A stretch of 35,560 bases of DNA from Methylotenera sp. (lineage in GTDB: Bacteria > Pseudomonadota > Gammaproteobacteria > Burkholderiales > Methylophilaceae), in NCBI GenBank assembly GCA_043745985.1, contig JAYTRW010000270.1:1-35560 (forward strand). The letters run 5' to 3'. The position numbers and the translations under genes were made by a program. Shown one piece after another: positions 19,122-35,560 of this stretch (its first letter is position 1; every line of letters starts with the position of its first letter). Below the pieces are notes generated by a model, which worked only from the letters and a program-made list of their open reading frames with translations, had not been told where the DNA came from and made no database searches.

Positions 19122-19322
19122 AAAAAATTTGGCGAAAACTGCTATTCAACGCCTCCTAAATTGCAACAAAAATGCATTTGTCACGACAATATCGCGTAAT
19201 TATAACAACCAACGCAATTATCGTCAAAACTAATGGAAATTAAATTGACATTGATTCTTAATAAAATACTGCTCACTCTGTCGCCATTAGATACTTTTTG
19301 TTCTTTTACCTAACAAATGGAT

Positions 19323-19946
19323 TTAAAAAGGTAATTTAAGGCGATACTTTATTGAGGTTATTCTTAGTGCAGTTGTAAAAGCAATTGCGACTAGCGTGCT
19401 AGGCAGTTCATCTATACCTAAATATAGACATATTAAAAATACCGCGCTACCTAGTGCGGCGCATGTCGCGTAAAGCTCGTTGCGACGAAAAACATTGGGG
19501 ATTTCATTGCAAATAATATCGCGAATAATTCCGCCAAATACGCCTGTGACTACACCCAGCAACATTGAGATATAAAAATCACAACCTACTTGGTGGGCCA
19601 TACTGGCGCCTATTGTGCTAAATAAGCCAAGACCAAGTGCATCTAATGTGTCAAAAATTTTGGTAACAGTTGGGTTTTCATAAAAGTTGATCGAAAGCGG
19701 CGCGGCAGCTATTGCAAAACCCAGCAGCATTAAAGCGTAACCTGAGTGTTGCACCCAGTATAGTGGGTAATGCCCTATCATCAGATCTCGCATAGTTCCA
19801 CCACCAAAGGCAGTAATCATGCTCACGGTATAAACACCGATCAAATCCATCCCTTTTTTGCGCGCTTCTATAATTCCAGTAAATGCAAACGCTAGTACAC
19901 CGAGCAGCTCAACTAAAGCTAACACATTAATTTGGGAGAAAATCAC
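19323..19946 (-). CDS. UPF0126/TRIC (YadS-like) membrane protein, putative glycine-related transporter
   Basis: Two internal repeats (AFAFTG...MDLIG...TAFGGGTMRDL; DALGLGLF...TGVFGGIIRDI); about 7 hydrophobic segments; GTG start 9 nt after the betA stop. Confidence 0.9.
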   Translation of the reverse strand: MIFSQINVLALVELLGVLAFAFTGIIEARKKGMDLIGVYTVSMITAFGGGTMRDLMIGHYPLYWVQHSGYALMLLGFAIAAAPLSINFYENPTVTKIFDTLDALGLGLFSTIGASMAHQVGCDFYISMLLGVVTGVFGGIIRDIICNEIPNVFRRNELYATCAALGSAVFLICLYLGIDELPSTLVAIAFTTALRITSIKYRLKLPF

Positions 19947-19955
19947 TTAATATTT

Positions 19956-21641
19956 TTATGTGTTTGAAGCTGCATCAACATTGCGATGAAGTGGATGAAT
20001 AAACACTGGTACTACTTTCGCAGAAAGTGGTTTAAGACCACGAATATGGTCTGATATTTTTTCTGCCATCATAATCGTAGGTGCGTTTAAATTACCAGTG
20101 ACAATTTCAGGCATGATAGACGCATCTACCACACGCAGATTTTGTAGGCCATGCACGTGACCTTCTGCATCCACTACAGCCATTTCATCATAACCCATCG
20201 CACATGAGCAAGATGGGTGATACGCTGTTTCACCATGTTGACGAACGAATGCATCTATTTCCGCATCGGTCTGTACGTTTTCACCTGGTGAAATTTCTCG
20301 GCCGACATAAGGCGCTAGCGCAGCTTGTTTCATGATGTTGCGCGTGATGCGCACACCTGCACGAAGCTCTCTTTTATCTTGCTCGGTAGACATGTAATTA
20401 AACTGGATGCTTGGATACTCAAGTGGATCTTTCGAGCGTATTTGCACGCGCCCACGGCTAGGGGAGCGCATGGAGCCCATATGTGCCTGAAAACTGTGAA
20501 TTTTAATTGGATTGCTGCCATCGTAATTAATAGCCACTGGCAGAAAATGATATTGAATATTGGGCCAAGTGAAACTATCATCACTACGAATAAAACCACC
20601 CGCTTCAAACTGATTGCTCGCGCCAATACCGGTGCCTAAAAATAGCCATTCCGCACCAATTAAGGGCTGATTGTATAGTTTTAGCGCTGGTGCTAATGAC
20701 ACTGGCTTTTTGCATTCGTATTGTTGATAAATTTCCATATGGTCTTGCAAGTTTGCACCAACTCCGGGCAAATCATGCACCAAAGGAATATCTAAATCAC
20801 GTAATAATGCTGCTGGGCCAACGCCTGAGCGCTGCAATATTGGTGGCGATGCTATGGCGCCAGCACATAACAAGACTTCACGCTTGGCATTGGCTTGTTG
20901 CGGCTTGCCATTATGCAAGTAAGCCACCCCTGATGCGCGCTTACCTGTAAACAAAATACGATCAGTCAGTGCATGCGTAATGATAGTGAGATTTTTACGG
21001 TCGCGCGTTTGGTCTAAATAGCCACGTGCAGTGCTAGAGCGCCTACCTTGTGGTGTGGTTGTGCGATCCATTGGGCCGAAGCCTTCTTGCTGGAAGCCGT
21101 TTAAGTCTTCAGTACGCGGATAGCCCGCCTGCACACCAGCTTCAACCATCGCTGTATACAGTACGTTATTGCCGCGTTTTGGCGTAGTAACGCTTACAGG
21201 ACCCGTACCACCATGATAATCATTAGGGCCAATATCTCTTGTTTCAGCTTTCTTAAAGTAGGGTAAACAGTCGAAATAAGACCAATTTTCTAAGCCCCTA
21301 CGTTTCGCCCATCCATCATAATCTAAAGCATTACCACGGATATAACACATGCCATTAATCAAAGAGGAACCGCCTAAGCCTTTACCGCGACCACATGAAA
21401 TTCGTCGGTTATTCATATGCGGCTCTGGCTCGGTTTCATAAGCCCAGTTATATCGCCTACCTTGTATTGGATAAGCCAAGGCGGCGGGCATTTGCGTACG
21501 AAAATCCAGGCGGTAGTCAGGTCCGCCTGCTTCTAGCAAGAGCACTGTTACATCAGCATCTTCGGTCAGGCGCGTTGCTAACACATTACCTGCAGAGCCC
21601 GCTCCTATAATGATATAATCGAATTCTATATTTTTACCCAT
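19956..21641 (-). CDS. betA: Choline dehydrogenase (GMC oxidoreductase)
   Basis: [33 protein letters not shown] and [13 protein letters not shown] motifs. Probable start is ATG 21641, after an AAGGA RBS. Confidence 0.96.
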
Positions 21642-21701
21642 GACTTTCCTTAAAGACCATACCTTCAATCAATAGACTTAAAATAATCTGGCAATCAATC
21701 G

Positions 21702-23211: not shown

Positions 23212-23275
23212 ATAGTAAGAGTCTAGAGAACTAAGCACCACTTAAATTACGACTTAAATTTAATCAAAACCGACT
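23212..23275 (-). promoter_or_regulatory. Putative GbdR-type tandem operator and -10 for betBA
   Basis: AGTCGG-N8-AA (23275) and AGTCGTAATT (23254) are exactly 21 bp apart. TACTAT -10 at 23217-23212. Confidence 0.7.
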
Positions 23276-23291
23276 GATACTAAACAAAATT

Positions 23292-23318
23292 AAAAAGGAC
23301 GCCTACGCGTCCTTTTTT
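23292..23318 (-). terminator. Intrinsic terminator after the porin gene
   Basis: AAAAAGGACGC-4 nt loop-GCGTCCTTTTT hairpin, with T-runs in both directions. Confidence 0.85.
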
Positions 23319-23345
23319 ACTTCAACTAAATTTACTGAAGAGTTC

Positions 23346-24284
23346 TTACCAGCTACGTTTAATAAAGAAAGTAAACTTACGGTCATTAATCACTTTACCA
23401 TTGTCATCTGTGTAATACTTAGTATTAATTGAACATTGCTCTTCACCAAAAGTGCCTGTGTAATTAAAGCCTGCATTAAAGCCATCAAGCGGTTTGCCAG
23501 CCGTTGGCAATGAGAAGTTTCTGTTCAAACCAATCAAATAATCCTTTTGATTTAAGCAGATGTCGCTAGAGCGCTGATAACCGACTTTGGCAGCTAAGTT
23601 TAAACCTGCAAATGGCAAAGTATTACCATATTTTAATTCATGATACTCAACACCACTAGTATCAGCAGCGGCATTAATCACATTAGCTGGATTTGTAAAG
23701 CTTATAGCGCTTGCTGGATCACGCTTTGTATTACCAATACCATACCAGTCTGTAAAGGCATGGTAGAAAGTATAGGTGAAGCCGTAAGCAGAAACGTTTA
23801 AATTACCTTCAAAAGTGTCTTCGTTTCTATTATGGTAAGATTTCTCACCTTCTGGATACCATACATAGTTACCACCAATACCTAGCGTAACTGGGCCAAA
23901 TGCGTGCGTGTAACCTCCATACCAGTCAGTTTCCACATGGTTACCTGTACCTAGTGGGTTTCCACTAGGGTCTACGTTAGTAACTGTACCTGCTGCGCCT
24001 AGCGTTTGTGCGTCAGTCGTTGAAAACCAAGCACCCAAATAGAAGCCACTGCTATGCGCCCAATCAACACCACCTTGCAACGCAGGGCCATCACCCCAGT
24101 CATTACCACGTGAAACGTAATTAGAATATACGCCTAGGTTATAAGTAAGTGTGTAAGCTGGGGCTGGTTCAACCGCAGCTGGAGCCACCTCTTCTGCTGA
24201 AGCATAAGCACAACTCAATAAAATTGGTGCTGCGCACAGTGTGCTTACTACGTGACGATTTGCAATCCAACTCAGCGCTTTCAT
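23346..24284 (-). CDS. TIGR02001/TorF-family putative outer-membrane porin
   Basis: Signal peptide ending AYASA; YSNYVSRG...PALQGGVDWAHSSGFYLGAW...ETDWYGGY family pattern; amphipathic C-terminal strand ending in Trp. Confidence 0.85.
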   Translation of the reverse strand: MKALSWIANRHVVSTLCAAPILLSCAYASAEEVAPAAVEPAPAYTLTYNLGVYSNYVSRGNDWGDGPALQGGVDWAHSSGFYLGAWFSTTDAQTLGAAGTVTNVDPSGNPLGTGNHVETDWYGGYTHAFGPVTLGIGGNYVWYPEGEKSYHNRNEDTFEGNLNVSAYGFTYTFYHAFTDWYGIGNTKRDPASAISFTNPANVINAAADTSGVEYHELKYGNTLPFAGLNLAAKVGYQRSSDICLNQKDYLIGLNRNFSLPTAGKPLDGFNAGFNYTGTFGEEQCSINTKYYTDDNGKVINDRKFTFFIKRSW

Positions 24285-24360
24285 TTGATTTCTCCCATAA
24301 TATTCAAAAGATAAAACTAAACTGACTATTTATAAAAATTATATTCAATTATGCAATTTC

Positions 24361-24423
24361 ATTATCAAAGAATACTTCAGAAAAAAATTAGTAATTACGA
24401 CATTAATCATAGCAAAAACGCCG
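24361..24423 (-). promoter_or_regulatory. Putative GbdR-type tandem operator and -10 for the porin
   Basis: CGGCGT (24423) and TGTCGTAATT (24402) are 21 bp apart. GATAAT -10 at 24366-24361. Confidence 0.65.
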
Positions 24424-24669
24424 AGCTGGTTTTTTTATATAAGAAACAGAAATATAATTAACTCAATACTGCTGACGCTTAAATGCAATGAAATCTTAGT
24501 GATCGTTAAGGCTTTGTCATGATGGCTAATAGTTAAAAATAATATCTACAATTATCATTTCAAAATATTATCTTCAGGACTATCATGATGTAAACCTTAA
24601 GAAATATGTGGCATTAAAAAATATATAAATTGTTAAACGTTTATTGTAAGTCATCGTGATTGGGGTCGT

Positions 24670-25692
24670 ATGTCTTGTAAGGAAATGTCACAGGTCAGGC
24701 ATGTTGGGTTCTTGACCCTCAATAATTTTTCTATGATTGCATTTTCGAATGCGATTGAAATCCTTCGCATGGCAAACTACTTGCTAGGCCAAGAAGTGTA
24801 TCAGTGGTCAGTCATCACACCAGATGGCCTACCCGTTGAAGCAAGCAATGGGTTAGCTTTTGCCAAAACTACCATGCTAGACAAGATTACCATGCCAGAC
24901 ATGCTGCTTGTTTGTGGTGGTGTGGATGTACAAACTTCCGTCAACTCAAGCGTTATCAAGTTAATCACCCAAGCTAGTAAGCAAAATGTATGGTTAGGCA
25001 GCTTGTGTACAGGCAGTTACGCGCTGGCAAAAGCTGGCGTGCTAGATGGCTATAAATGCACTATACATTGGGAGAACATGGCGAGCCTGCGTGAAAAATT
25101 TCCGTATATTATATTTATGGAAGAGCTTTTCGTCATTGACCGTGACCGTTGCACGTGCGCAGGCGGTACAGCACCAATAGATTTAATGTTGGCATTTGTT
25201 TTTGCGAGATTTGGCAAAAATTTGGTCGCTGAAATTTCAGATCAATTCATGGTAGTACGCGCAAGAGATAGTAAAGATCAACAGCACATTCCAGTCGCTG
25301 CACGTGTTGGGTATAGCCACAAAGCCTTAGTTGAAGTGTCTGCCTTAATGGAAACTAATATTGAAGAGCCACTGCCGCTGGATGAACTGGCGAGACTAGC
25401 TGGACTATCTCAGCGCCATTTACAGCGTATGTTTAACCACACACTGAATATGAGCCCTATGCATTACTATTTAAATCTTAGGTTAAGGCGTGCTAGATCT
25501 CTGCTTTTACAAACTGAGATGTCCATTATGAGTATTACTGTCGCTTGTGGATTTCAGTCTTCATGTCACTTCAGCAAATCATACCGTACGCTGTTTGGCT
25601 ACTCGCCAAGCAAGGAGAGACGTAAGAACCAGCATACGCCAGCTATTCACTCACTAACAAGCAATACAAACATGCATACAAGCCATACATAA
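24670..25692 (+). CDS. gbdR: GlxA/GATase-like AraC regulator, GbdR-like
   Basis: N-terminal DJ-1/GATase-like domain (GFLTLNNFSMIAF, SLCTG, TIHWEN, TCAGG) and C-terminal AraC double HTH (LSQRHLQRMF, ACGFQSSCHFSK.YR). The symbol rests on family and context. Confidence 0.85.
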   Translation: MSCKEMSQVRHVGFLTLNNFSMIAFSNAIEILRMANYLLGQEVYQWSVITPDGLPVEASNGLAFAKTTMLDKITMPDMLLVCGGVDVQTSVNSSVIKLITQASKQNVWLGSLCTGSYALAKAGVLDGYKCTIHWENMASLREKFPYIIFMEELFVIDRDRCTCAGGTAPIDLMLAFVFARFGKNLVAEISDQFMVVRARDSKDQQHIPVAARVGYSHKALVEVSALMETNIEEPLPLDELARLAGLSQRHLQRMFNHTLNMSPMHYYLNLRLRRARSLLLQTEMSIMSITVACGFQSSCHFSKSYRTLFGYSPSKERRKNQHTPAIHSLTSNTNMHTSHT

Positions 25693-25715
25693 AATTACTT
25701 TTTGCACGCCGTGAT

Positions 25716-25782
25716 TCACATGTCGTGATTTAACAAGATTCTGTCGTAATTCTTTATTTAAAGGTTGACTACTCGCTATATT
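25716..25782 (+). promoter_or_regulatory. Putative GbdR-type tandem operator and -10 for choX
   Basis: TGTCGT-N8-AA (25721) and TGTCGTAATT (25742) are 21 bp apart. TATATT -10 at 25777. Confidence 0.78.
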
Positions 25783-25880
25783 TTACTACTTGTAACAAAA
25801 CTTTCTTTTCAGTGCGATAACGAGTGTGGTTTCACCATGCTGTCTTCTTTGAGTACTATCAATATTACGTAGGAGTTAAA

Positions 25881-26870
25881 ATGAATCACTTTGCAAAATC
25901 TGTTTTAATCGCCGCACTATTCCCTCTAGCCTTTACTGCCTGCGGCAAAAAGGAAAGTGATGTTTCCACTCCTGCGGCCACTGCAGAAGCGTCAAGTACT
26001 GGCGAAGCCGCCAGTTGTAGCGCAGTAAAATTTGCTGATATTGGCTGGACTGATATTACAGCAACCACCGCACTCTCTTCTGTTGTTTTAGAAGGTTTAG
26101 GTTACAAACCCGTTTCTACCATTGCTTCTGTACCCATTGCATTTGCTGGCATTAAAAAAAGTCAGATTGACGTTTTTCTTGGCTACTGGTCTCCTTCAAT
26201 GACGCCAATTGTTGAACCGTTTCTTAAAGATATTAAAGTACTTGAAAAACCTAACTTAGTCGGCGCCAAATATACTTTAGCCGTACCAACCTACGCTTAT
26301 GAGGCTGGTTTAAAAAGCTTTACAGATATTGCAAAATTTAAAGATAACCTTGAAGGTAAAATGTACGGCATCGAGCCAGGCAATGATGGTAATAAAATTA
26401 TTGCAGATATGATTACTAAAAATGCATTTGGCCTTAAAGATTTCAAAATGGTTGAGTCTAGCGAAGCTGGTATGTTGACAGAAGTTAGCCGCTCAGTGAA
26501 AAACAAAAAATGGATCGTATTCTTAGGTTGGGCACCTCACCCAATGAACGTTCAACAAGACATTACCTACTTAAGTGGTGGTGACGACTTCTTTGGCGCT
26601 AACTATGGTGAAGCCAAAGTGTATACCGTGACAGCGACTGATTTAGGCTCACGTTGCCCAAATGTCAATAAACTTGTCACCAATTTAGAGTTTAATTTAG
26701 ACATGGAAAACCAAGTGATGCTGCCAATTATGGATAAAACAGCACCGAATGCTGCGGCAAAAGCATGGTTAACTAAAAACCCTGCTGTGTTAGACAAATG
26801 GTTAGATGGTGTAAAAACGTTAGATGGAAAACCAGGTTTAGAGGCTGTGAAAAAATACTTAGGCGTTTAA
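25881..26870 (+). CDS. choX: Choline-binding protein (ChoX/CbcX family), predicted lipoprotein
   Basis: ATG 25881 with an AGGAG RBS. Aromatic-cage motifs DIGWTD, LGYW, KYTL, GIEPGNDGN and LGWAPHPMN. Lipobox-like FTA-C at Cys21. Confidence 0.9.
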   Translation: MNHFAKSVLIAALFPLAFTACGKKESDVSTPAATAEASSTGEAASCSAVKFADIGWTDITATTALSSVVLEGLGYKPVSTIASVPIAFAGIKKSQIDVFLGYWSPSMTPIVEPFLKDIKVLEKPNLVGAKYTLAVPTYAYEAGLKSFTDIAKFKDNLEGKMYGIEPGNDGNKIIADMITKNAFGLKDFKMVESSEAGMLTEVSRSVKNKKWIVFLGWAPHPMNVQQDITYLSGGDDFFGANYGEAKVYTVTATDLGSRCPNVNKLVTNLEFNLDMENQVMLPIMDKTAPNAAAKAWLTKNPAVLDKWLDGVKTLDGKPGLEAVKKYLGV

Positions 26871-26894
26871 ACTCGAGTCATAAAATAAATCATT

Positions 26895-26934
26895 AAAAAG
26901 GCTGTAACAGTGAAGTGCTGTTATGGCCTTTTTT
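26895..26934 (+). terminator. Intrinsic terminator after choX
   Basis: GGCTGTAACAG...CTGTTATGGCC stem with two G-U pairs, followed by T6. Confidence 0.8.
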
Positions 26935-27020
26935 GTTTTTTCGTCTCGTCATTTTTAAGCAGTCACCAAGACCATAGCCATTACTCGTTAACTCTTATTT
27001 ATTTATGTTGGCTTAAAACG

Positions 27021-27089
27021 TCACATGTCGTAAATAGCCAAGAAAAAGTCTGATGTAGCACATTAAACAAAGCGCTGAAACAGCAGAAT
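27021..27089 (+). promoter_or_regulatory. Putative GbdR-type tandem operator for the sox operon
   Basis: TCACATGTCGT is identical to the choX site. TGTCGT-N8-AA at 27026, degenerate AGTCTG at 27047 (+21), weak CAGAAT -10 at 27084. Confidence 0.68.
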
Positions 27090-27131: not shown

Positions 27132-28385
27132 TTGAAAAAAGATTATTCCATTTGGAAACTACTCTCACAAGGGTTAAAACATCACGAAGGATGGACGCCT
27201 GCTTGGCGCAGCCCTGAAGTTAAATCCTCATATGACGTAGTGATTATTGGCGCTGGTGGTCATGGTTTAGCTACAGCTTACTACCTCGCTAAAGAGCATG
27301 GTATTAAGAGTATTGCGGTGTTAGAAAAAGGCTATTTAGGTGGCGGCAATACTGCTCGCAACACCACGATTGTCCGCTCTAATTACCTTTGGGATGAAGC
27401 AGCCATGCTTTATGAGCACTCACTCAAGCTGTGGGAAGGATTGACCGAAGACATTAACTACAACGTGATGTTTAGTCAGCGTGGTGTGTTCAATCTAGGT
27501 CATACGCTACAAGATATGCGCGATATTGAGCGTCGTGTGAATGCCAATAATCTAAACGGAATTGATGCTTTGGCGTTGAATGCGCAAGAAGTGAAAGACC
27601 GTATTCCGATGATTAACATTTCTAAGGACACGCGCTTTCCAATTATGGGCGCCAGTTTTCAGCCTCGCGCTGGTGTGGCTAGGCACGATGCTGTTGCTTG
27701 GGGCTTTGCCCGTGCAGCGAGTAATTATGGTGTTGATATCATCGAAAACTGCGAAGTAACTGCGATGGACATCGTTAACTCTGCGATTAAAGGTTTACAA
27801 ACAAGCAAAGGTTATATTTCAACCACAAAAGTTGGTTGTGTGACGGCCGGTCATTCATCAGTCATGGCAAAAGCTGCTGGTATCCGCATGCCGCTTGAAA
27901 GCCATCCGCTACAAGCCTTTGTTTCAGAATCACTTAAACCTATATTAGATACGGTGGTGATGTCTAATGCAGTGCATGGTTATGTGAGTCAATCAGATAA
28001 AGGTGAGCTTGTGATTGGCGCAGGCATTGACCACTATACTAGTTATGCTCAGCGCGGTAGCCCACATGTGATTGAGCACACCGCAGCAGCAATTATCGAA
28101 CTATTTCCAATGTTTTCACGCGTACGCATGAACCGCCAATGGGGTGGCATTGTAGATACCACGCCAGATGCCTGCCCAATTATCAGTAAGACTAAAGTCA
28201 AAGGCTTGTACTTTAACTGTGGCTGGGGTACAGGTGGCTTTAAAGCAACGCCTGGATCGGGCAACGTATTTGCCCACACTATTGCACATGATGAACCACA
28301 CCCATTAAATGCTGCCTTCACACTTGACCGTTTCCATACTGGTCATTTGATTGACGAGCATGGCGCAGCTGGTGTTGCGCATTAA
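27132..28385 (+). CDS. soxB: Heterotetrameric sarcosine oxidase beta subunit
   Basis: [37 protein letters not shown] and C-terminal [10 protein letters not shown] motifs. TTG start with a GGAGG RBS. Confidence 0.93.
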
Positions 28386-28409
28386 AGCTTAAGCTAAAAA
28401 GGAAAACTC

Positions 28410-28709
28410 ATGTTTGTTATTAAATGCCCACATTGTTTTGAAGCGCGAGAAGAAGAAGAGTTTAGCTATGGTGGCGAAGCCTTTGTCGCGCGTCCTGAAT
28501 CACCCAGAACTGAAAGCGAAGAAAATTGGGGGGATTATTTGTTTATGAAACGAAATCCAAAGGGCTGGCACTGGGAAATGTGGGGGCATAGCACAGGTTG
28601 CCGCAAGTTTTTTGTATTAAAGCGCAATACTGCAAACCACACCATAGTTGGCGCTTGGACATTGGCTGAGGCTCGTAAAATTTATGATGCAGAAGAGGCA
28701 ACCGCATGA
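28410..28709 (+). CDS. soxD: Sarcosine oxidase delta subunit
   Basis: CPHC...H..GC zinc ligands; EFSYGGEA and NPKG motifs. Confidence 0.93.
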   Translation: MFVIKCPHCFEAREEEEFSYGGEAFVARPESPRTESEENWGDYLFMKRNPKGWHWEMWGHSTGCRKFFVLKRNTANHTIVGAWTLAEARKIYDAEEATA

Positions 28710-31700
28710 GCAACAGAATCAATCATAAAAATAGTCGCGTTGATTTAAAGCGCCCGCTTACATTTACTTTTGATGGCCAAACCTATCAAGGTTTTGTAGG
28801 CGACACCCTAGCATCAGCATTGCTTGCTAATGGCGTTAAAGTAGTTGCACGCAGCTTTAAATATGGGCGTCCTCGCGGCATTATTGGTTCGGGCGCAGAA
28901 GAGCCTAACGCACTGGTGCAAATCGACGTTGGCGCACGTACAACCCCAGATTTAAAAGCCACTCAAGTTGAGCTGTACGATGGCTTAGTGGCTGGCCGTA
29001 CCAGCGGCTGGCCATCGCTAGCATTCGATCTTAAAAGTGTAAGTGGCAAATTTTCACGCTTTATGCCTGCGGGTTTTTACTATAAAACTTTTAAATGGCC
29101 GACTAAATTATGGCCGTTCTATGAAGATATTATTCGCCGAGCAGCAGGTTATGGAAAATCACCTGTTGAAGCTGATACGGAAACTTATGACCATCAACAT
29201 CATCACATAGATTTGCTTGTGGTTGGCGGTGGCGCAACTGGCTTGCTAGCCGCATTGTTGGCTGGTCGAAGTGGCTTAAAGGTTTTATTGGTTGATGACC
29301 AATCTGAACTTGGTGGCTATTTGCTCTCTATGCCTAACGTATTGATTGGTGGGGTCAGCGCAAGTACATGGTCAGCTAATATCATTAAGGAATTGCGGAG
29401 CCTGCCTAACGTATCCATTCTTTCTCGTACCACAGCTTTTGCTCTGCATGATATGAATATGATTCAGGCCGTAGAGTTGTTGCAAGACCATCTACCTCAT
29501 GCAGAAAGAAAAAGTGCGCAACGCCGCGAACGCTTGCATCGTATTCGCGCATCTAAAGTAGTGTTGGCAACGGGTGCTTTTGAGCGTCCCTTAGTATTCG
29601 GCAACAATGACCTGCCAGGCATTATGACGGCTTCTGCGTTAACCACTTATTTAAACCGCTATGGCGTCGCTTGCGGTAAAAATGTGGTAATTATGACGAG
29701 CAATGACTTAGTCTATCAAGGTGCGGTTGATTTAGCTGAGTCTGGCATCACGGTGACCGTGGTGGATACCAGAGAGCACATTAACCATGAATGGGCTGTT
29801 AAAACCAATCAATCAGGCATTAAAGTGTATGTTGGTTACGGCATCAGTGAGGCGGTTGGTTCTGATTCAGTACAAGGCGTGCAATTAGTTAAATTAGGTA
29901 GCTTAAAAAATGTAGTCACAGCTAAAGGCCCTTATGTGCCATGTGATGTCTTAGCAAGTTCTGGCGGATTATCTCCAACTGTGCATTTATTCTGCCACGA
30001 TGGCGGTCGCCCACAATGGGATGATGCTCGTCTAGCATTTGTAGTTTCTGCTAATGGCCGTGCCAAAGATGGTATTTTCTGTGTAGGCGCAATTACTGGT
30101 ATTTTTGCCTTACAAGAAGGGTTAGCCAAAACGCATGACACCATTGCAGAACTTTTAATTGGCCTTGGTAAAACAATCAATGCTTCAGGTTTATTATTAG
30201 AAACCGATGAAATTGCTGTCACACCAGCGCGCCGTATATTTCATGTACCAGATGGTAAAGATGGGCATGGTGCTAAATCTTTTGTAGACTTTCAGAATGA
30301 TGTTGCTGTCACGGATATTCACCTAGCTGTACGTGAAAATTATCGTTCAATTGAGCATATCAAACGCTATACAGCATTAGGCTTTGGTACAGATCAAGGC
30401 AAGTTATCTAACGTCAATGGCTTTGCAATTGCCGCTGAAGCTTTAGGCAAAACAATTCCAGAAGTTGGCACAACCACTTACCGTCCTGCTTACACGCCAG
30501 TGTCCTTTGGGGCTTTAGCTGGTGCGCATGTTGGCGATACGTTTGAACCTCGCCGTTATACCGCAGTGCAAACCACGCATGAACGCTATGGCGCGGAGTT
30601 TGAGCCAGTCGGCCAATGGATGCGCCCTTGGTACTTTCCTAAACCAGGAGAAGATATTCATGCAGCAGTCAATCGTGAATGCTTAGCCACACGCAATAGC
30701 GTAGGTATGTTAGATGCTTCAACCTTAGGCAAAATCGACATTCGGGGCAAAGATGTACGTGAGTTTTTAAACCGCATCTATGCCAATGCATGGTCACAAC
30801 TTGCAGTAGGTAAATGTCGTTACGGCTTGATGTTAGATGAAGCTGGTATGGTGATGGATGATGGCGTGACAGCCTGCATCTCAGACACACATTTTTTAAT
30901 GACCACCACTTCTGGCGGCGCAGCCCGCGTAATGACTTGGTTGGAAAAATGGCACCAAACTGAATGGCCTGAGCTAGAAGTGTATATGACCTCTGTGACT
31001 GACCATTGGACTACAGCAGCCTTAGTCGGCCCAAAAAGCCGTGAAGTATTAGCTAAACTTTGTACTGATATTGACCTATCAAAAGAGTCATTCAAGTTTA
31101 TGGATTGGCGCGATGGAACAGTCGCTGGCGTGCCAGCGCGCGTATTCCGCATCAGCTTTTCAGGTGAGTTAGCTTATGAAGTTAACGTAGACGCTGGTTA
31201 TGGTGATTACATGTGGAATGAACTCATGAAGGCAGGTCAGGAGTTTGACATTACGCCCTATGGCACTGAAACCATGCACGTATTGCGCGCAGAAAAAGGC
31301 TTCATTATCGTTGGGCAAGATACTGATGGCTCTGTCACGCCGTTTGACTTAGACATGGCATGGGCAGTCGGTATGAAAAAACCTTATAGCTTTTTAGGTA
31401 AACGTTCACTTGCTAGGTCTGACACTAGCCGTACTGATCGTAAGCAATTAGTTGGCTTATTACCAGAAGATCCAAATGTAGTCCTGAAAGAAGGCGCTCA
31501 GTTAATTAACTCGCCAGACATTACGCCGCCAGTGGCCATGCTAGGTCATGTTACTTCTAGTTATCACAGCGCATTTCTTGGCCGCTCTATCGCGATGGGA
31601 TTTGTGATTGATGGCATTAAACGTCGCGCTGAAGAAGGCAATAATATTGTTTACGCATGGGCAGAAGGTAAAGCCGTTAAAGTGAAAATTGTTTCATACG

Positions 31701-31738
31701 TGTTTGTTGATGCAGAAGGAGCGCGACATAATGCTTAA
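28706..31738 (+). CDS. soxA: Sarcosine oxidase alpha subunit
   Basis: GDTLASALLANG, RSFKYGRPRG, GGGATG NAD site, KRYT..G.GTDQGK, and a GcvT-like folate domain (DASTLGKI, SFSGELAYE). ATGA overlap with soxD. Confidence 0.95.
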   Translation: MSNRINHKNSRVDLKRPLTFTFDGQTYQGFVGDTLASALLANGVKVVARSFKYGRPRGIIGSGAEEPNALVQIDVGARTTPDLKATQVELYDGLVAGRTSGWPSLAFDLKSVSGKFSRFMPAGFYYKTFKWPTKLWPFYEDIIRRAAGYGKSPVEADTETYDHQHHHIDLLVVGGGATGLLAALLAGRSGLKVLLVDDQSELGGYLLSMPNVLIGGVSASTWSANIIKELRSLPNVSILSRTTAFALHDMNMIQAVELLQDHLPHAERKSAQRRERLHRIRASKVVLATGAFERPLVFGNNDLPGIMTASALTTYLNRYGVACGKNVVIMTSNDLVYQGAVDLAESGITVTVVDTREHINHEWAVKTNQSGIKVYVGYGISEAVGSDSVQGVQLVKLGSLKNVVTAKGPYVPCDVLASSGGLSPTVHLFCHDGGRPQWDDARLAFVVSANGRAKDGIFCVGAITGIFALQEGLAKTHDTIAELLIGLGKTINASGLLLETDEIAVTPARRIFHVPDGKDGHGAKSFVDFQNDVAVTDIHLAVRENYRSIEHIKRYTALGFGTDQGKLSNVNGFAIAAEALGKTIPEVGTTTYRPAYTPVSFGALAGAHVGDTFEPRRYTAVQTTHERYGAEFEPVGQWMRPWYFPKPGEDIHAAVNRECLATRNSVGMLDASTLGKIDIRGKDVREFLNRIYANAWSQLAVGKCRYGLMLDEAGMVMDDGVTACISDTHFLMTTTSGGAARVMTWLEKWHQTEWPELEVYMTSVTDHWTTAALVGPKSREVLAKLCTDIDLSKESFKFMDWRDGTVAGVPARVFRISFSGELAYEVNVDAGYGDYMWNELMKAGQEFDITPYGTETMHVLRAEKGFIIVGQDTDGSVTPFDLDMAWAVGMKKPYSFLGKRSLARSDTSRTDRKQLVGLLPEDPNVVLKEGAQLINSPDITPPVAMLGHVTSSYHSAFLGRSIAMGFVIDGIKRRAEEGNNIVYAWAEGKAVKVKIVSYVFVDAEGARHNA

Positions 31739-32369
31739 TTCAACTACTACCAACATCTTGGAATTCAGCCCTGTGATGCAATCACCATTGCATCCGTTTG
31801 GCTTAACGGCAAAACAGGAAAAAATAAATGATAGCAAAGGTGCATGGGCTAATGAAATCCCGCTGCTTGGCTACATCGGCCTGCGTGGAAATTCGCAAAA
31901 TGCGAAATTTGTTAACGCAATCAACTCAGCGCTAAATGTCACGCTGCCAACGCAGCCTTGCAGCATGAGTTATACGACATGGGGATCTATTCTTTGGCTT
32001 TCTCCAGATGAATGGTTGATTGTTTGCAAACGTGATCAACGTGCCGCTTTGCAACAATCGCTGGAAACTACATTGGCAGGGATTCATAGCCAAGTCGTTG
32101 ATAACTCAGGTGGATTTACCTCTGTTTTGCTTAAAGGTAAAAATGCCAGCGATGTATTGCACCATTGCACAGTGTATGACTTAAACCTGCTACAAGCAGG
32201 CAAGGTAGTAGGCACAACTTTCGGCAAATTGAGCTTATACCTACATCAACATGAAGATGGTTATAGTCTAGTGTTTCGTCGTAGCTTTGCAGACTACATC
32301 TGGCGCTATCTTGAGCGCAGCGCCCTGCCCTATGGCTTTGGCATTGCTCAATTAAATGATGGACAGTAA
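31731..32369 (+). CDS. soxG: Sarcosine oxidase gamma subunit
   Basis: LWLSPDEWL, VVDNSGG and RRSFADY motifs. Probable start is ATG 31731, after AAGGAG, overlapping the soxA stop by 8 nt. Confidence 0.92.
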   Translation: MLNSTTTNILEFSPVMQSPLHPFGLTAKQEKINDSKGAWANEIPLLGYIGLRGNSQNAKFVNAINSALNVTLPTQPCSMSYTTWGSILWLSPDEWLIVCKRDQRAALQQSLETTLAGIHSQVVDNSGGFTSVLLKGKNASDVLHHCTVYDLNLLQAGKVVGTTFGKLSLYLHQHEDGYSLVFRRSFADYIWRYLERSALPYGFGIAQLNDGQ

Positions 32370-32371
32370 CC

Positions 32372-33778
32372 ATGAACTATAGCGTATTTGAAGTTTTTCG
32401 CATTGGTATTGGCCCCTCAAGCTCACATACGGTTGGGCCAATGATTGCGGTAAACCGTTTTCTTTTAGAAATTGAAAAACGTGGCTTAATTCAGCAGGTT
32501 GCTGAAGTTAAAATTCACCTGTTTGGATCACTCGCACTCACAGGTAAAGGTCATGGAACAGACTATGCTGTTATCGCTGGTTTGGTTGGCGCATTACCCG
32601 ATCAAGTTGATCCAGCAAGCATCATTCCGCTAGTTGAATCTATTAAAGAAACTGGCCGTTTAATGCTGATGAATACCGTTGAAATTCCATTTAATTTCAA
32701 CACGCATTTGGTTTTTCACAATCATCAATCATTACCTCAGCATCCTAATGGCATGGTATTGCAGGCTTTTTATGATGATGGAGATTCACTGCACCGTAAC
32801 TCCTACTTTTCAATAGGTGGCGGCGCAGTGTTGGATGAGCAAGAAATTCTCCGCACCACAAAAACCAGTGCCATTGTTAAAGAAACGCCAGTTTCTACAC
32901 CGTTCTGGTTTGATAACGCTGCAGACTTGCTAAAAATGGGCAACGAGAAAAACCTTTCAATTGCTGAGATAGTTTGGGGCAACGAATTAAGATACCAAAA
33001 TGCGGAAGAAACACGCAGCAAGTTACTTCGGGTTTGGGATGTGATGAATGCTAGCATTGAACGCGGACTTGTGACAGAAGGCATGCTACCCGGCGGGCTA
33101 AAAGTAAAACGCCGAGCGCATTTACTCTACAAACAAGCCAGTACAGTGGGCGGTAAACTATCGTCAGATTTCCAAGCAATGGACATGGTGAGTGCTTTCG
33201 CCATTGCAGTGAATGAAGAAAACGCTTGTGGTGGGCGCGTAGTCACAGCGCCAACCAACGGCTCTGCTGGCGTAATACCATCAGTGTTAAGTTACTTCAC
33301 GCGTTTTTGCCAGCAGCAAAGAACCAAAACTGAAATCGAAGACAACATCATTAAGTTTTTACTCACTGCTGCGGGCATAGGCATGCTGTATAAAAAGAAT
33401 GCCTCTATATCAGCCGCTGAAATGGGCTGCCAAGGTGAGATTGGCGTTTCATGCTCGATGGCAGCAGCAGGTTTAGCAGCGGTACTTGGCGCCAATAATG
33501 AGCAAATTGAAAATGCTGCTGAAATCGCCATGGAACACAATTTAGGCATGAGCTGCGATCCAATTGGTGGCCTTGTCCAAATCCCATGTATTGAGCGCAA
33601 CAGCATGGGCGCAGTGAAAGCCATTAATGCGGCACGCTTAGCAATGATGCATGAAGGCGGTCACATTGTGTCGTTAGATGCAGTGATTGAAACCATGCGC
33701 CAAACGGGTGTGGATATGCAATCAAAATACAAAGAAACAGCGCTCGGCGGATTAGCTATCAATGTCGTCGCTTGCTAG
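32372..33778 (+). CDS. sdaA: Fe-S L-serine ammonia-lyase (single-chain type)
   Basis: [41 protein letters not shown] and [16 protein letters not shown] motifs. Confidence 0.95.
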
Positions 33779-33837
33779 TCATTAATTAAGTTAATGTCCT
33801 GCCAAAATCATATCTTAATGTATTAGAAAGAGCCCCA

Positions 33838-35115
33838 ATGAACCAGACTAAAGCATCCTTCTTCTCAGCATCCCTAGCCGACGCTGACCCTGCAATTCAA
33901 TCGGCGGTCAATGAAGAGCTAGTTCGACAACAATCACAAATTGAACTAATTGCCTCTGAAAATATTGTCTCTCGTGCGGTGCTAGAAGCGCAAGGCACAG
34001 TGTTAACCAACAAATATGCCGAAGGCTATCCAGGTAAACGTTATTACGGCGGTTGTGAGTTTGTCGATAAAGTTGAAACGTTGGCTATCGACAGATTAAA
34101 ACAACTATTCGGTGCGAAATTCGCCAATGTACAGCCACATTCTGGCGCCCAAGCCAATGGCGCAGTCATGTTAGCTATCGCAAAACCTGGCGATACTATT
34201 TTAGGCATGTCACTGGATGCGGGTGGACACTTAACCCATGGCGCCAGACCTGCGCTTTCAGGCAAATGGTTTAACGCAGTGCAATATGGTGTACGTCGTG
34301 AAGACTATCGCTTAGATTATGACCAAGTGGAAGCCCTAGCCAATGAACATAAACCTAAAGTGATTATTGCTGGTTACTCAGCCTATCCGCGGGCTGTGGA
34401 TTTTGCTCGTTTCCGCGAAATTGCTGATAGTGTAGGTGCAACTTTGATGGTGGATATGGCGCACTTTGCTGGAATCGTGGCGGCTGGCCGTCATCAAAAT
34501 CCAGTTGAACATGCGCATATCGTTACATCGACCACCCATAAAACGCTACGCGGCCCTCGCGGTGGAGTGATACTGACTAATGATGAAGAGTTGATTAAAA
34601 AAATAAATTCTGCAGTTTTCCCTGGCTTGCAAGGCGGCCCGCTTATGCATGTGATTGCAGGTAAAGCCGTTGCCTTTGGTGAAGCACTTCAACCTGAGTT
34701 CAAAATGTATATTGACCGAGTATTAGCCAATGCAAAAGCGCTGGGTGAAGTGCTAGTTGCAGGCGGAGTCGACTTAGTAACAGGCGGCACAGACAATCAC
34801 TTAGTCTTGGTCGATTTACGTCCTAAAGGATTAAAAGGTAAGCAAGTTGAGCATGCATTGGAACGTGCTGGTATTACCTGTAACAAAAATGGTATTCCGT
34901 TCGATGACGAAAAACCAACCGTCACCTCTGGTGTGCGTTTGGGCACGCCAGCTGGCACCACACGAGGCTTTGGCGAAGCTGAATTCCGTCAAGTTGGTGA
35001 GTTAATTTTACAAGTATTCGAAGGTTTGAAAAATAATCCAGATGGAGATGAAGCCACAGAAAAGCGTGTGCGCGGTGAAGTATTAGCGCTTTGCAAGCAG
35101 TATCCAATTTATTGA
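33838..35115 (+). CDS. glyA: Serine hydroxymethyltransferase (probably a catabolic copy)
   Basis: [28 protein letters not shown] and [12 protein letters not shown] (PLP lysine) motifs. Confidence 0.97.
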
Positions 35116-35178
35116 TTTAAACGCAAACGCACAGTTAGAAAGTTTATGGTTAATTGATTGATACACAGGAGAAATTAA

Positions 35179-35560
35179 ATGAAACATTCCACTCCTATCA
35201 ATAGTGAAAATAATATCAATATGAGTGATGCTAACGCAGCAGCTATGAGCTATGTTCCGAGGAGCGATGTTCCGCGTGACTTTTTCACGAATAATCAATC
35301 CACTATAGAGGATGTTATTGGCTTTAATGAGTATGCTGAAGTGCTCTATGAAGCAGGCTATAAATCTGCCTATCACTGGTGTGAAAAAGAGTCCAAATTA
35401 AACCATTTATCTGGCATCGCCGTTTTTGAGCATTATTTAAATCGCCTATCACAACGTGGCTGGGGAGTGTTTAGTTTTGAGTTTGTGAATGCCGACACTG
35501 GTAACGCTGAAGTAAAGCTTGAATACTCCTCTTTTGTGCTATCACAGCCTGAAAAGCCGG
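35179..35560 (+). CDS. V4R/DUF5943-like protein of dimethylglycine catabolism loci (P. aeruginosa PA5397-like), truncated by the window edge
   Basis: Not in the ORF track. AGGAG RBS, ATG 35179, open to the end of the window: MKHSTP...YVPRSDVPRDFFTNN...YAEVLYEAGYKSAYHWCEKE...FEHYLNRLSQRGWG. Family recognised from memory of these motifs. Confidence 0.8.
   Translation, partial: MKHSTPINSENNINMSDANAAAMSYVPRSDVPRDFFTNNQSTIEDVIGFNEYAEVLYEAGYKSAYHWCEKESKLNHLSGIAVFEHYLNRLSQRGWGVFSFEFVNADTGNAEVKLEYSSFVLSQPEKP
35247..35276 (+). repeat. Imperfect 15-bp in-frame tandem duplication
   Basis: GAGCTATGTTCCGAG / GAGCGATGTTCCGCG, 13/15 identical. Confidence 0.7.

What the first reader, a model, noticed from the sequence alone, without database searches (positions are those of the whole stretch)
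23212..27089. Four promoters share a 21-bp-periodic TGTCGT operator: a regulon readable directly from the DNA
Seen: half-site pairs exactly 21 bp apart precede betB (AGTCGG/AGTCGT, minus 23275/23254), the porin (CGGCGT/TGTCGT, minus 24423/24402), choX (TGTCGT/TGTCGT, 25721/25742) and soxB (TGTCGT/AGTCTG, 27026/27047). Three proximal sites read GTCGTAATT and three distal sites have AA after N8. A -10-like hexamer starts 35-37 bp after the proximal site in all four. Known: GATase-like AraC regulators such as P. aeruginosa ArgR bind direct repeats of TGTCGC-N8-AA-N5. Inference: the resident GbdR-like protein activates all four units, which ties the uncharacterised porin and TRIC genes to choline/betaine use.
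Basis: partly seen in the sequence, partly recalled or inferred. Interest (0 to 1): 0.8.

Follow-up and report, generated by a model that had tools for sequence, protein, structure and literature searches.

The report
Betaine-regulator operators in a methylotroph
Four promoters in a choline-use gene island of a Methylotenera-like bacterium carry the same conserved 21-base-spaced repeat, of a kind already known for betaine- and arginine-sensing activators, so the one regulator encoded in the island likely switches on uptake, oxidation and breakdown of choline, including a porin and a small transporter of untested function.

Summary
Confirmed, and of a known kind. The four half-site pairs sit at the stated coordinates. 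With a matrix trained on other genomes they are the top 4 of 1,376 upstream windows (20-31 bits; next 12.8). They recur in untrained Methylophilaceae (choX 20/20, porin 8/8, leading betB 7/7, soxB 14/14) and before choX in 35/35 Hyphomicrobium-type loci. A -10-like hexamer lies 36-37 bp after the proximal site. The motif is the published GATR box (CdhR GGTCGC-N15; ArgR TGTCGC-N6-G-N-AA-N5), and the resident GbdR-like protein is the only GATR found. What differs from Pseudomonas: one regulator, no BetI, a box before betBA, and inferred class II placement. In a Methylophaga genome where betA was not found, boxes precede a stand-alone TRIC gene, a BCCT transporter and an unrelated porin, which supports the TRIC and porin link. 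A fifth, weak site may lie in the sdaB 3' end before glyA. Binding, start sites and ligand are untested. A word search of earlier scan notes found none on this regulon.

The parts
23234..23275 (-). betB operator: distal half-site starts 23275, proximal 23254
   Evidence: 31.0 bits, rank 1
23212..23217 (-). predicted -10 hexamer TACTAT of the betB-betA-TRIC unit, offset 37
23292..23317 (-). terminator-like hairpin between the porin and the betB promoter
24382..24423 (-). porin operator: distal 24423, proximal 24402
   Evidence: 20.5 bits
24361..24366 (-). predicted -10 hexamer GATAAT of the porin gene, offset 36
25721..25762 (+). choX operator: distal 25721, proximal 25742
   Evidence: 26.1 bits
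25779..25784 (+). predicted -10 hexamer TATTTT of choX, offset 37 (TAnnnT at this offset in 33 of 33)
26895..26933 (+). terminator-like hairpin after choX
27026..27067 (+). soxB operator: strong distal 27026, weak proximal 27047 (GTCT core)
27084..27089 (+). predicted -10 hexamer CAGAAT of the sox operon, offset 37
33745..33808 (+). candidate fifth operator inside the last sdaB codons, with TGn-CAAAAT at offset 37 before glyA (weak, 4.9 bits)
24670..25692 (+). GbdR-like GATR regulator, 340 aa
21702..23174 (-). betB, betaine-aldehyde dehydrogenase
   Evidence: over cut-off
19956..21668 (-). betA, choline dehydrogenase
   Evidence: over cut-off
19323..19946 (-). TRIC/PF03458 ('Glycine transporter') membrane protein, starting 10 bp after betA
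23346..24284 (-). TorF-family (Gcw_chp) putative porin
25881..26870 (+). choX, choline ABC substrate-binding protein
   Evidence: TIGR03414 over cut-off
27132..35560 (+). soxBDAG-sdaB-glyA-DUF5943, continuing on contig C499 as dgcA/B-like, etfA/B, gbcA/B-like

Best explanation
The four promoters carry conserved 21-bp-period direct repeats of the GATR (GbdR/CdhR/ArgR) type, placed 36-37 bp before a -10-like hexamer, and the GbdR-like protein encoded between them likely binds these repeats as a dimer and is predicted to activate all four units in response to glycine betaine or dimethylglycine. Shown: sequences, spacing, conservation, co-occurrence with the regulator, terminator-like hairpins before betB and soxB, one GATR per genome examined, no BetI found. 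Inferred: one monomer per half-site; proximal half-site at about -49 overlapping a poor -35 region (class II, XylS-like); outputs are porin, choX, betB-betA-TRIC and the long sox-sda-glyA-dgc-etf-gbc operon. Also inferred: positive feedback, since BetBA makes the likely inducer. The three uptake and oxidation promoters have a strong proximal site, which could give basal priming. The catabolic promoter has a weak proximal site plus a competing inverted site, which could set a higher threshold (about 0.35 likely).
For: Top 4 of 1,376 upstream windows (31.0, 26.1, 20.5, 20.0; next 12.8) and ranks 1-4 of 4.77M positions. 11 of the 12 next hits inspected lie inside ORFs. Conserved by alignment column in the genus: betB 10/11, porin 11/12, choX 14/14, soxB 12/13. 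Untrained loci: choX 20/20, porin 8/8, leading betB 7/7, internal betB 0/5, soxB 14/14. Hyphomicrobium-type choX 35/35. -10 at offset 36/37: betB 16/17, porin 20/20, soxB 26/26, choX 33/33 TAnnnT. Boxes found by pattern away from the regulator in G369 precede TRIC (31.2), a BCCT transporter (17.4) and a porin-like protein (18.8). Published GATR sites have the same core and period. One GATR per genome; no BetI.
Against: No binding, start-site or expression data. The bare repeat is not enriched genome-wide. Held-out ranks for porin (199) and soxB (1,768) are modest and worse with a 37-bp matrix (133-1,164). The soxB proximal half-site scores only 1.0 (median) on a monomer matrix and has GTCG in 0 of 26. 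G035 lacks the soxB site. The regulator is under the GbdR equivalog cut-off (396.9 vs 480), so its ligand is not established. In Pseudomonas, CdhR at caiX and GbdR at plcH bind further upstream. Relatives are not independent, and the sets were picked by matrix score, so their core conservation is partly by construction.
Confidence: 0.85

Rival explanations
1. The regulator binds the boxes but mainly represses, or has a dual role, because the proximal site overlaps the -35 region; ligand would relieve repression.
For: Overlap with the inferred -35 region. CdhR represses its own basal expression and GbdR can dampen co-bound promoters. The soxB inverted site could be a repressing position.
Against: No promoter-like call with a consensus -35 at any of the four, and the -35/-10 spacer columns are poorly conserved (0.53-0.57), as expected for activator-dependent promoters. 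The fixed offset of 36-37 fits a class II contact. GbdR and SouR are described as activators.
Confidence: 0.07
2. Three promoters belong to the GATR, but soxB is run by, or shared with, a second factor that binds the palindrome ACGACA-(CA)-TGTCGY or the TGTA-N-(T/C)ACA block.
For: The soxB proximal core is GTCG in 0 of 26 and its adjoining block is strongly conserved. Held-out rank is 1,768. Pseudomonas uses a second GATR, SouR, for sox.
Against: The distal and inverted sites score like true GATR half-sites (medians 10.4 and 11.0). The proximal GTC is kept in 26 of 26 at the 21-bp register with the -10 at 36/37. No second GATR was found. Neither block picks out a plausible second regulon in G000.
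Confidence: 0.12
3. A different, unlinked transcription factor binds all the repeats.
For: Binding is untested, and G000 is 84% complete.
Against: Boxes follow this regulator across Beta-, Alpha- and Gammaproteobacteria. A strict pattern hits 13 of 17 genus genomes with the regulator and 5 of 76 without; one of those five is a real betB box and four lie in unrelated ORFs.
Confidence: 0.04
4. The repeats are chance matches in AT-rich spacers.
For: No genome-wide excess of GTCG pairs at period 21.
Against: Out-of-sample recurrence, loss when betB becomes an internal gene, and a fixed -10 offset.
Confidence: 0.01

Closest known systems
Pseudomonas aeruginosa GbdR regulon (with CdhR and SouR sites)
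   Same: GATR regulator, GTCG-core direct repeats at a 21-bp period (CdhR GGTCGC with a 15-bp spacer, described as very similar to GbdR, SouR and ArgR sites; PMC5806209), CG kept in the distal half-site, targets cbcX/choX, gbcAB, dgcAB, soxBDAG.
   Different: One GATR instead of several; no BetI found, and a box before betBA; inferred class II position (about -70/-49) against class I for CdhR at caiX and about -90 for GbdR at plcH; T often replaces C at position 6; porin and TRIC targets; three-half-site soxB promoter. The published GbdR and SouR consensus figures could not be read.
P. aeruginosa ArgR ARG box
   Same: TGTCGC-N6-G-N-AA repeated with a 5-bp gap, i.e. a 21-bp period (PMC10963909); AA at 15-16 in most betB, choX and soxB distal sites.
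   Different: The G at position 13 is mostly absent (0/17, 0/20, 7/33, 1/26), and the pathway and regulator are choline/betaine, not arginine.
XylS at the Pm promoter (AraC/XylS class II geometry)
   Same: Two 15-bp direct repeats (PMC5481539 passage); a cited title there says XylS and RNA polymerase sites overlap. The 21-bp period and the -70/-49 positions are recalled.
   Different: Different box sequence, regulator subfamily and ligand.
BetI-controlled betIBA / betICBA operons
   Same: The same BetB and BetA enzymes.
   Different: Those are held by the choline-sensing repressor BetI. Here no BetI was found in 5 of 5 genus genomes searched and a GATR box precedes betB.

Membership tests
GATR (GlxA-type AraC) regulator | N-terminal DJ-1/PfpI domain plus C-terminal AraC HTH | tested here: met
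   PF01965 15-177, PF12833 240-318
GATR operator (CdhR/GbdR/SouR/ArgR) | Direct-repeat half-sites with a GTCG core at a 21-bp period | tested here: met
   proximal GTCG in 17/17, 20/20, 33/33; soxB distal GTCG 26/26 but proximal 0/26
GATR operator (GbdR) | Conserved CG in the distal half-site | tested here: met
   distal GTCG or GGCG in betB 17/17, porin 18/20, choX 33/33, soxB 26/26; requirement from PMC5806209
GATR operator | Sequence-specific binding by the regulator | not testable with these tools
   needs EMSA or footprinting
Pseudomonas GbdR equivalog (NF052371) | Score over the curated cut-off of 480 bits | tested here: not met
   396.9 bits; 48-50% identity to three over-cut-off hits. 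Filed as GbdR-like, not as the equivalog
GbdR | Responds to glycine betaine and dimethylglycine | not testable with these tools
   indirect only: regulator and boxes kept in G369, where gbcA is present and betA was not found; source labels of close homologues read 'glycine betaine-responsive activator'
GbdR/CdhR promoters of P. aeruginosa | Site upstream of the core promoter (class I) | tested here: not met
   the -10-like hexamer lies 36-37 bp after the proximal start, which implies overlap with the -35 region; start sites not mapped
ArgR ARG box | TGTCGC-N6-G-N-AA | tested here: not met
   G13 mostly absent, and AA absent in 20/20 porin sites
BetI regulon | betI gene present | tested here: not met
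   0 of 5 genomes over the TIGR03384 cut-off (best 33.9 bits) and 0 of 5 with PF13977

The most novel reading that the evidence does not exclude
A single GbdR-like protein runs the whole choline pathway as a two-tier switch written in the DNA. Strong proximal sites keep uptake and BetBA primed without BetI. At the catabolic operon, a conserved inverted half-site competes for the dimer until betaine accumulates and the dimer re-pairs onto the weak proximal site, an inverted-to-direct repeat switch for a GATR. The same box marks PF03458 TRIC proteins and two unrelated porins as betaine-pathway transporters, and a fifth operator is encoded in the last codons of sdaB.
Probability: 0.3. Interest if true: 0.6.

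Novelty: new variant of a known kind. Interest (0 to 1): 0.38.

Why it matters
It gives a ready, testable regulon for choline and betaine use in freshwater methylotrophs (regulator found in 16 of 93 genus genomes). It supplies about 100 aligned sites for a regulator family whose ligand recognition is still open. It assigns a TorF porin and a PF03458 protein to a pathway by regulatory evidence. It also shows a BetI-free wiring in which the product likely induces its own synthesis. It is not a new class of element.

Tried and rejected
Bare-string counting showed no enrichment at period 21. The best extra genome hit (C232, 19.1 bits) and 10 more of the 12 inspected lie inside ORFs and were rejected. 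A 22-bp-spaced GTC series at the regulator's own start is not conserved, and its upstream window scores 3.5, so no autoregulatory box is claimed. A near-match at the etfB 3' end (7.6 in G000, up to 16.6 elsewhere) has no -10 at the offset and was treated as a coding coincidence. No box was found before TRIC, betA, dgcA or choV in the Methylophilaceae loci (scores up to 9.8); the rows for gbdR in L083, L154 and L156, gbcA in L093 and choV in L159 were mis-sliced and ignored. Scans with the two soxB-specific blocks found no second regulon. Hampel 2014 is not held. Passages of PMC8041468, PMC6610081, PMC8313267, PMC6794327 and PMC3572970 gave no GbdR consensus and no Methylophilaceae regulon. A search for MelR site architecture returned nothing, so no MelR comparison is made. 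No structure or complex job was run: the complex tool does not score protein with DNA.
Full report
Setting. The window is contig C270 of a 2.4-Mb, 84% complete assembly. The nearest named records of the regulator (98-99% identity) are titled Methylotenera. Family scans give, between glnD and the contig end: cupin, PF03458 TRIC protein, betA, betB, TorF-family porin (all minus strand), then a DJ-1/PfpI + AraC-HTH regulator, choX, soxBDAG, sdaB, glyA and DUF5943 (plus strand). Contig C499 continues with dgcA/B-like, etfA/B and gbcA/B-like genes. The regulator was found in 16 of 93 genus genomes and betA in 14 of 93, 13 of them with the regulator.

Observation. One search confirms every half-site, the 21-bp spacing, the three GTCGTAATT proximal sites and the three distal AA dinucleotides. 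The -10-like hexamers start at offsets 37, 36, 37 and 37. Terminator-like hairpins lie between porin and betB (23292-23317) and between choX and soxB (26895-26933), so those genes likely need their own promoters.

Chance. The bare repeat is not enriched: GTCG pairs number 28 at period 21 against 11-34 at periods 15-27. I aligned upstream regions from genus relatives. By alignment column the site is present in betB 10 of 11 (G032 partly masked), porin 11 of 12 (G032's site was found later at 28.3 bits), choX 14 of 14 and soxB 12 of 13 (G035 differs). A 31-bp matrix trained without G000, G005, G019, G081 and G030, and without the two non-matching rows, ranks the four sites 1-4 of 4,765,276 positions. 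Holding each promoter out gives ranks of 2 (betB), 24 (choX), 199 (porin) and 1,768 (soxB); a 37-bp matrix gives 133, 161, 936 and 1,164. Of 12 next-best hits inspected, 11 lie in ORFs. Among 1,376 upstream windows of long ORFs the four are the top four, and the next scores 12.8.

Out-of-sample tests. In 23 loci not used in training (22 Methylophilaceae-type and one Methylophaga; regulator 71-84% identical) the best upstream site scored 19.9-29.8 for choX in 20 of 20 and 27.7-33.5 for the porin in 8 of 8. It scored 21.2-32.1 for betB in 7 of 7 where betB leads a unit, and only 0.9-7.7 in 5 of 5 where betB follows choX by 113-120 bp. soxB had the site in the same register in 14 of 14 (5.1-20.2). 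In Hyphomicrobium-type loci choX beat block shuffles in 35 of 35 and betB in 14 of 30; 26 of those 30 show TGTCGY-N15-YGTCGY by eye. G052, of another family, has a box before choV with TAnnnT at offset 37. A strict pattern built from the sites matched 13 of 17 genus genomes with the regulator and 5 of 76 without; the reversed pattern gave 17 matches in 15 genomes. Of the five, one is a true betB box and four lie in unrelated ORFs. Kin are not independent, so these counts are not probabilities.

Geometry. In 96 unique sites chosen as the best matrix hit (internal betB rows and G035 soxB dropped), a -10-like hexamer sits at offset 36 or 37 in betB 16 of 17, porin 20 of 20 and soxB 26 of 26. For choX the strict filter passes 16 of 33, but TAnnnT is at offset 37 in 33 of 33. 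By standard sigma-70 spacing (recalled) the proximal half-site starts near -49 and the distal near -70, overlapping the -35 region as for XylS (PMC5481539, passages; exact positions recalled). CdhR is class I at caiX (PMC5806209, passages and Discussion). GbdR binds about 90 bases upstream of the plcH start (bioRxiv 2023.11.06.565848, passages).

Which protein. The regulator's best family is GbdR (396.9 bits, cut-off 480). It is the only full-length GATR hit in G000 and the only match at E <= 1e-15 in G019, G005, G081 and G371. Its HTH region aligns closely with the regulators of all box-bearing loci examined. Published GATR sites have this form: CdhR GGTCGC with a 15-bp spacer, called very similar to GbdR, SouR and ArgR sites, with the distal CG needed for GbdR binding; ArgR TGTCGC-N6-G-N-AA in tandem with a 5-bp gap (PMC10963909, passages). 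BetI, which holds betBA in P. aeruginosa and S. meliloti (bioRxiv 2026.09.15.751800, passages), was not found in 5 of 5 genus genomes. One Hyphomicrobium genome has a BetI-like hit under the cut-off (178 bits), so that absence is not claimed outside the genus.

(a) soxB has three half-sites. An inverted half-site ends 0-2 bp before the distal site in 25 of 26 soxB promoters, against 1 of 17, 0 of 20 and 1 of 33 at the others. On a monomer matrix trained without soxB, the medians are 11.0 (inverted), 10.4 (distal) and 1.0 (proximal). In G000 the inverted site carries a T-to-A change and scores 3.7. The proximal GTC is kept in 26 of 26, followed by T in 24. A conserved weak site suggests selection for a threshold, but a second factor is not excluded. 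(b) A candidate fifth site lies in the last sdaB codons (33745/33766) with TGn-CAAAAT at offset 37. It is kept in 7 of 8 genomes where glyA follows, and the eighth lost both the proximal site and the hexamer. It is absent in the five Methylophilaceae loci where dgcA follows directly. It scores only 4.9 in G000 and the protein sequence constrains it; I put it at about 0.45.

Porin and TRIC. TRIC starts 10 bp after betA and follows it in the porin-type loci with room to see it. In Methylophaga G369, where betA was not found (draft genome) but gbcA was, a pattern search found a box on a contig without the regulator. It scores 31.2, has the porin-type GATAAT at offset 37 and precedes a stand-alone TRIC orthologue (68%). 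Two more boxes there precede a BCCT transporter (17.4) and a 493-aa protein with no family hit whose nearest Atlas clusters are porin-like (18.8). So TRIC stays under the box when choline oxidation appears to be gone, which ties it to betaine or its products, and an outer-membrane channel under the box recurs with an unrelated protein. Substrates are untested.

Mechanism. Most likely (0.85) the regulator binds the pairs as a dimer and activates through a class II contact once betaine or DMG is present. P. aeruginosa GbdR responds to these, and to choline only after BetBA conversion. With BetBA inside the regulon this would be positive feedback that needs basal priming; priming is described for cbcXWV. 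The strong proximal sites at porin, choX and betB and the weak, contested one at soxB would give such two-tier behaviour (inference, about 0.35).

Novelty. The motif class and the pathway are known. Searches for Methylotenera + betaine + choline, Methylophilaceae + 'choline degradation', a Methylotenera species name + betaine, and GbdR + betaine + motif + upstream (listings seen) showed no paper on this regulon. Most subscription papers, Hampel 2014, the SouR paper and RegPrecise were not readable, and no supplements were read, so a published prediction may exist. The GATR paper on CahR says ligand recognition in this family is still not understood (bioRxiv 2021.11.02.466972, passages). Look-ups of earlier scan notes gave none on this regulon. 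Verdict: real, a new variant of a known kind, interest 0.38.

Noticed in passing
upstream of the regulator in L037, L040, L080-L082, L084-L088, L092, L151, L152; L056, L058, L060, L153, L159: Near-perfect NtrC-type boxes (e.g. TGCACCCAATTTGTGCA) or sigma-54-like -24/-12 motifs lie in the porin-regulator gap of many relatives but not in G000, G005, G019, G081 or G030 (consensus patterns recalled; loose background 29% and 10%). This suggests nitrogen control of the island that this lineage lacks.
   Followed up: partly
window 35115-35179; L033:1281-2264: A Peptidase_M19 gene lies between glyA and DUF5943 in G005; a like-sized ORF is there in G108. It is missing there in G000, G019 and G081, whose DUF5943 N-terminus differs. 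G035 lacks sdaB, glyA and DUF5943 at this place.
   Followed up: partly
L228 (G099:C145:1054-2523): betB is in three frames in G099, which keeps the betB box while the regulator was not found: a decaying island or assembly error.
   Followed up: no
G369:C16 (L262, L263, L265): The contig is a mirror image of itself around about 29.5 kb, probably an assembly artefact. Between the box and TRIC a short stretch resembles a betB remnant by eye, suggesting porin-betB-betA were deleted.
   Followed up: partly
window 19199-19227: The cupin gene has its own near-consensus sigma-70 promoter (11 of 12, TG-extended) and no box, so it is likely outside the regulon.
   Followed up: yes
window 25824-25881: The ORF finder starts choX at GTG 25824, but ATG 25881 follows an AGGAG and gives a lipoprotein-like signal ending in LAFTAC.
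   Followed up: partly
G000 C233:13564-14490: A second TorF-type porin, 49% identical; its upstream DNA is cut by the contig end, so it could not be tested for a box.
   Followed up: no
G000 C499 end: choV and choW follow gbcB in relatives but were not found in this assembly; C499 ends 155 bp after gbcB.
   Followed up: partly
L088 and L034: Insertions of about 6.3 kb and 1.6 kb separate choX from soxB, yet the soxB operator stays 106-115 bp from soxB.
   Followed up: no
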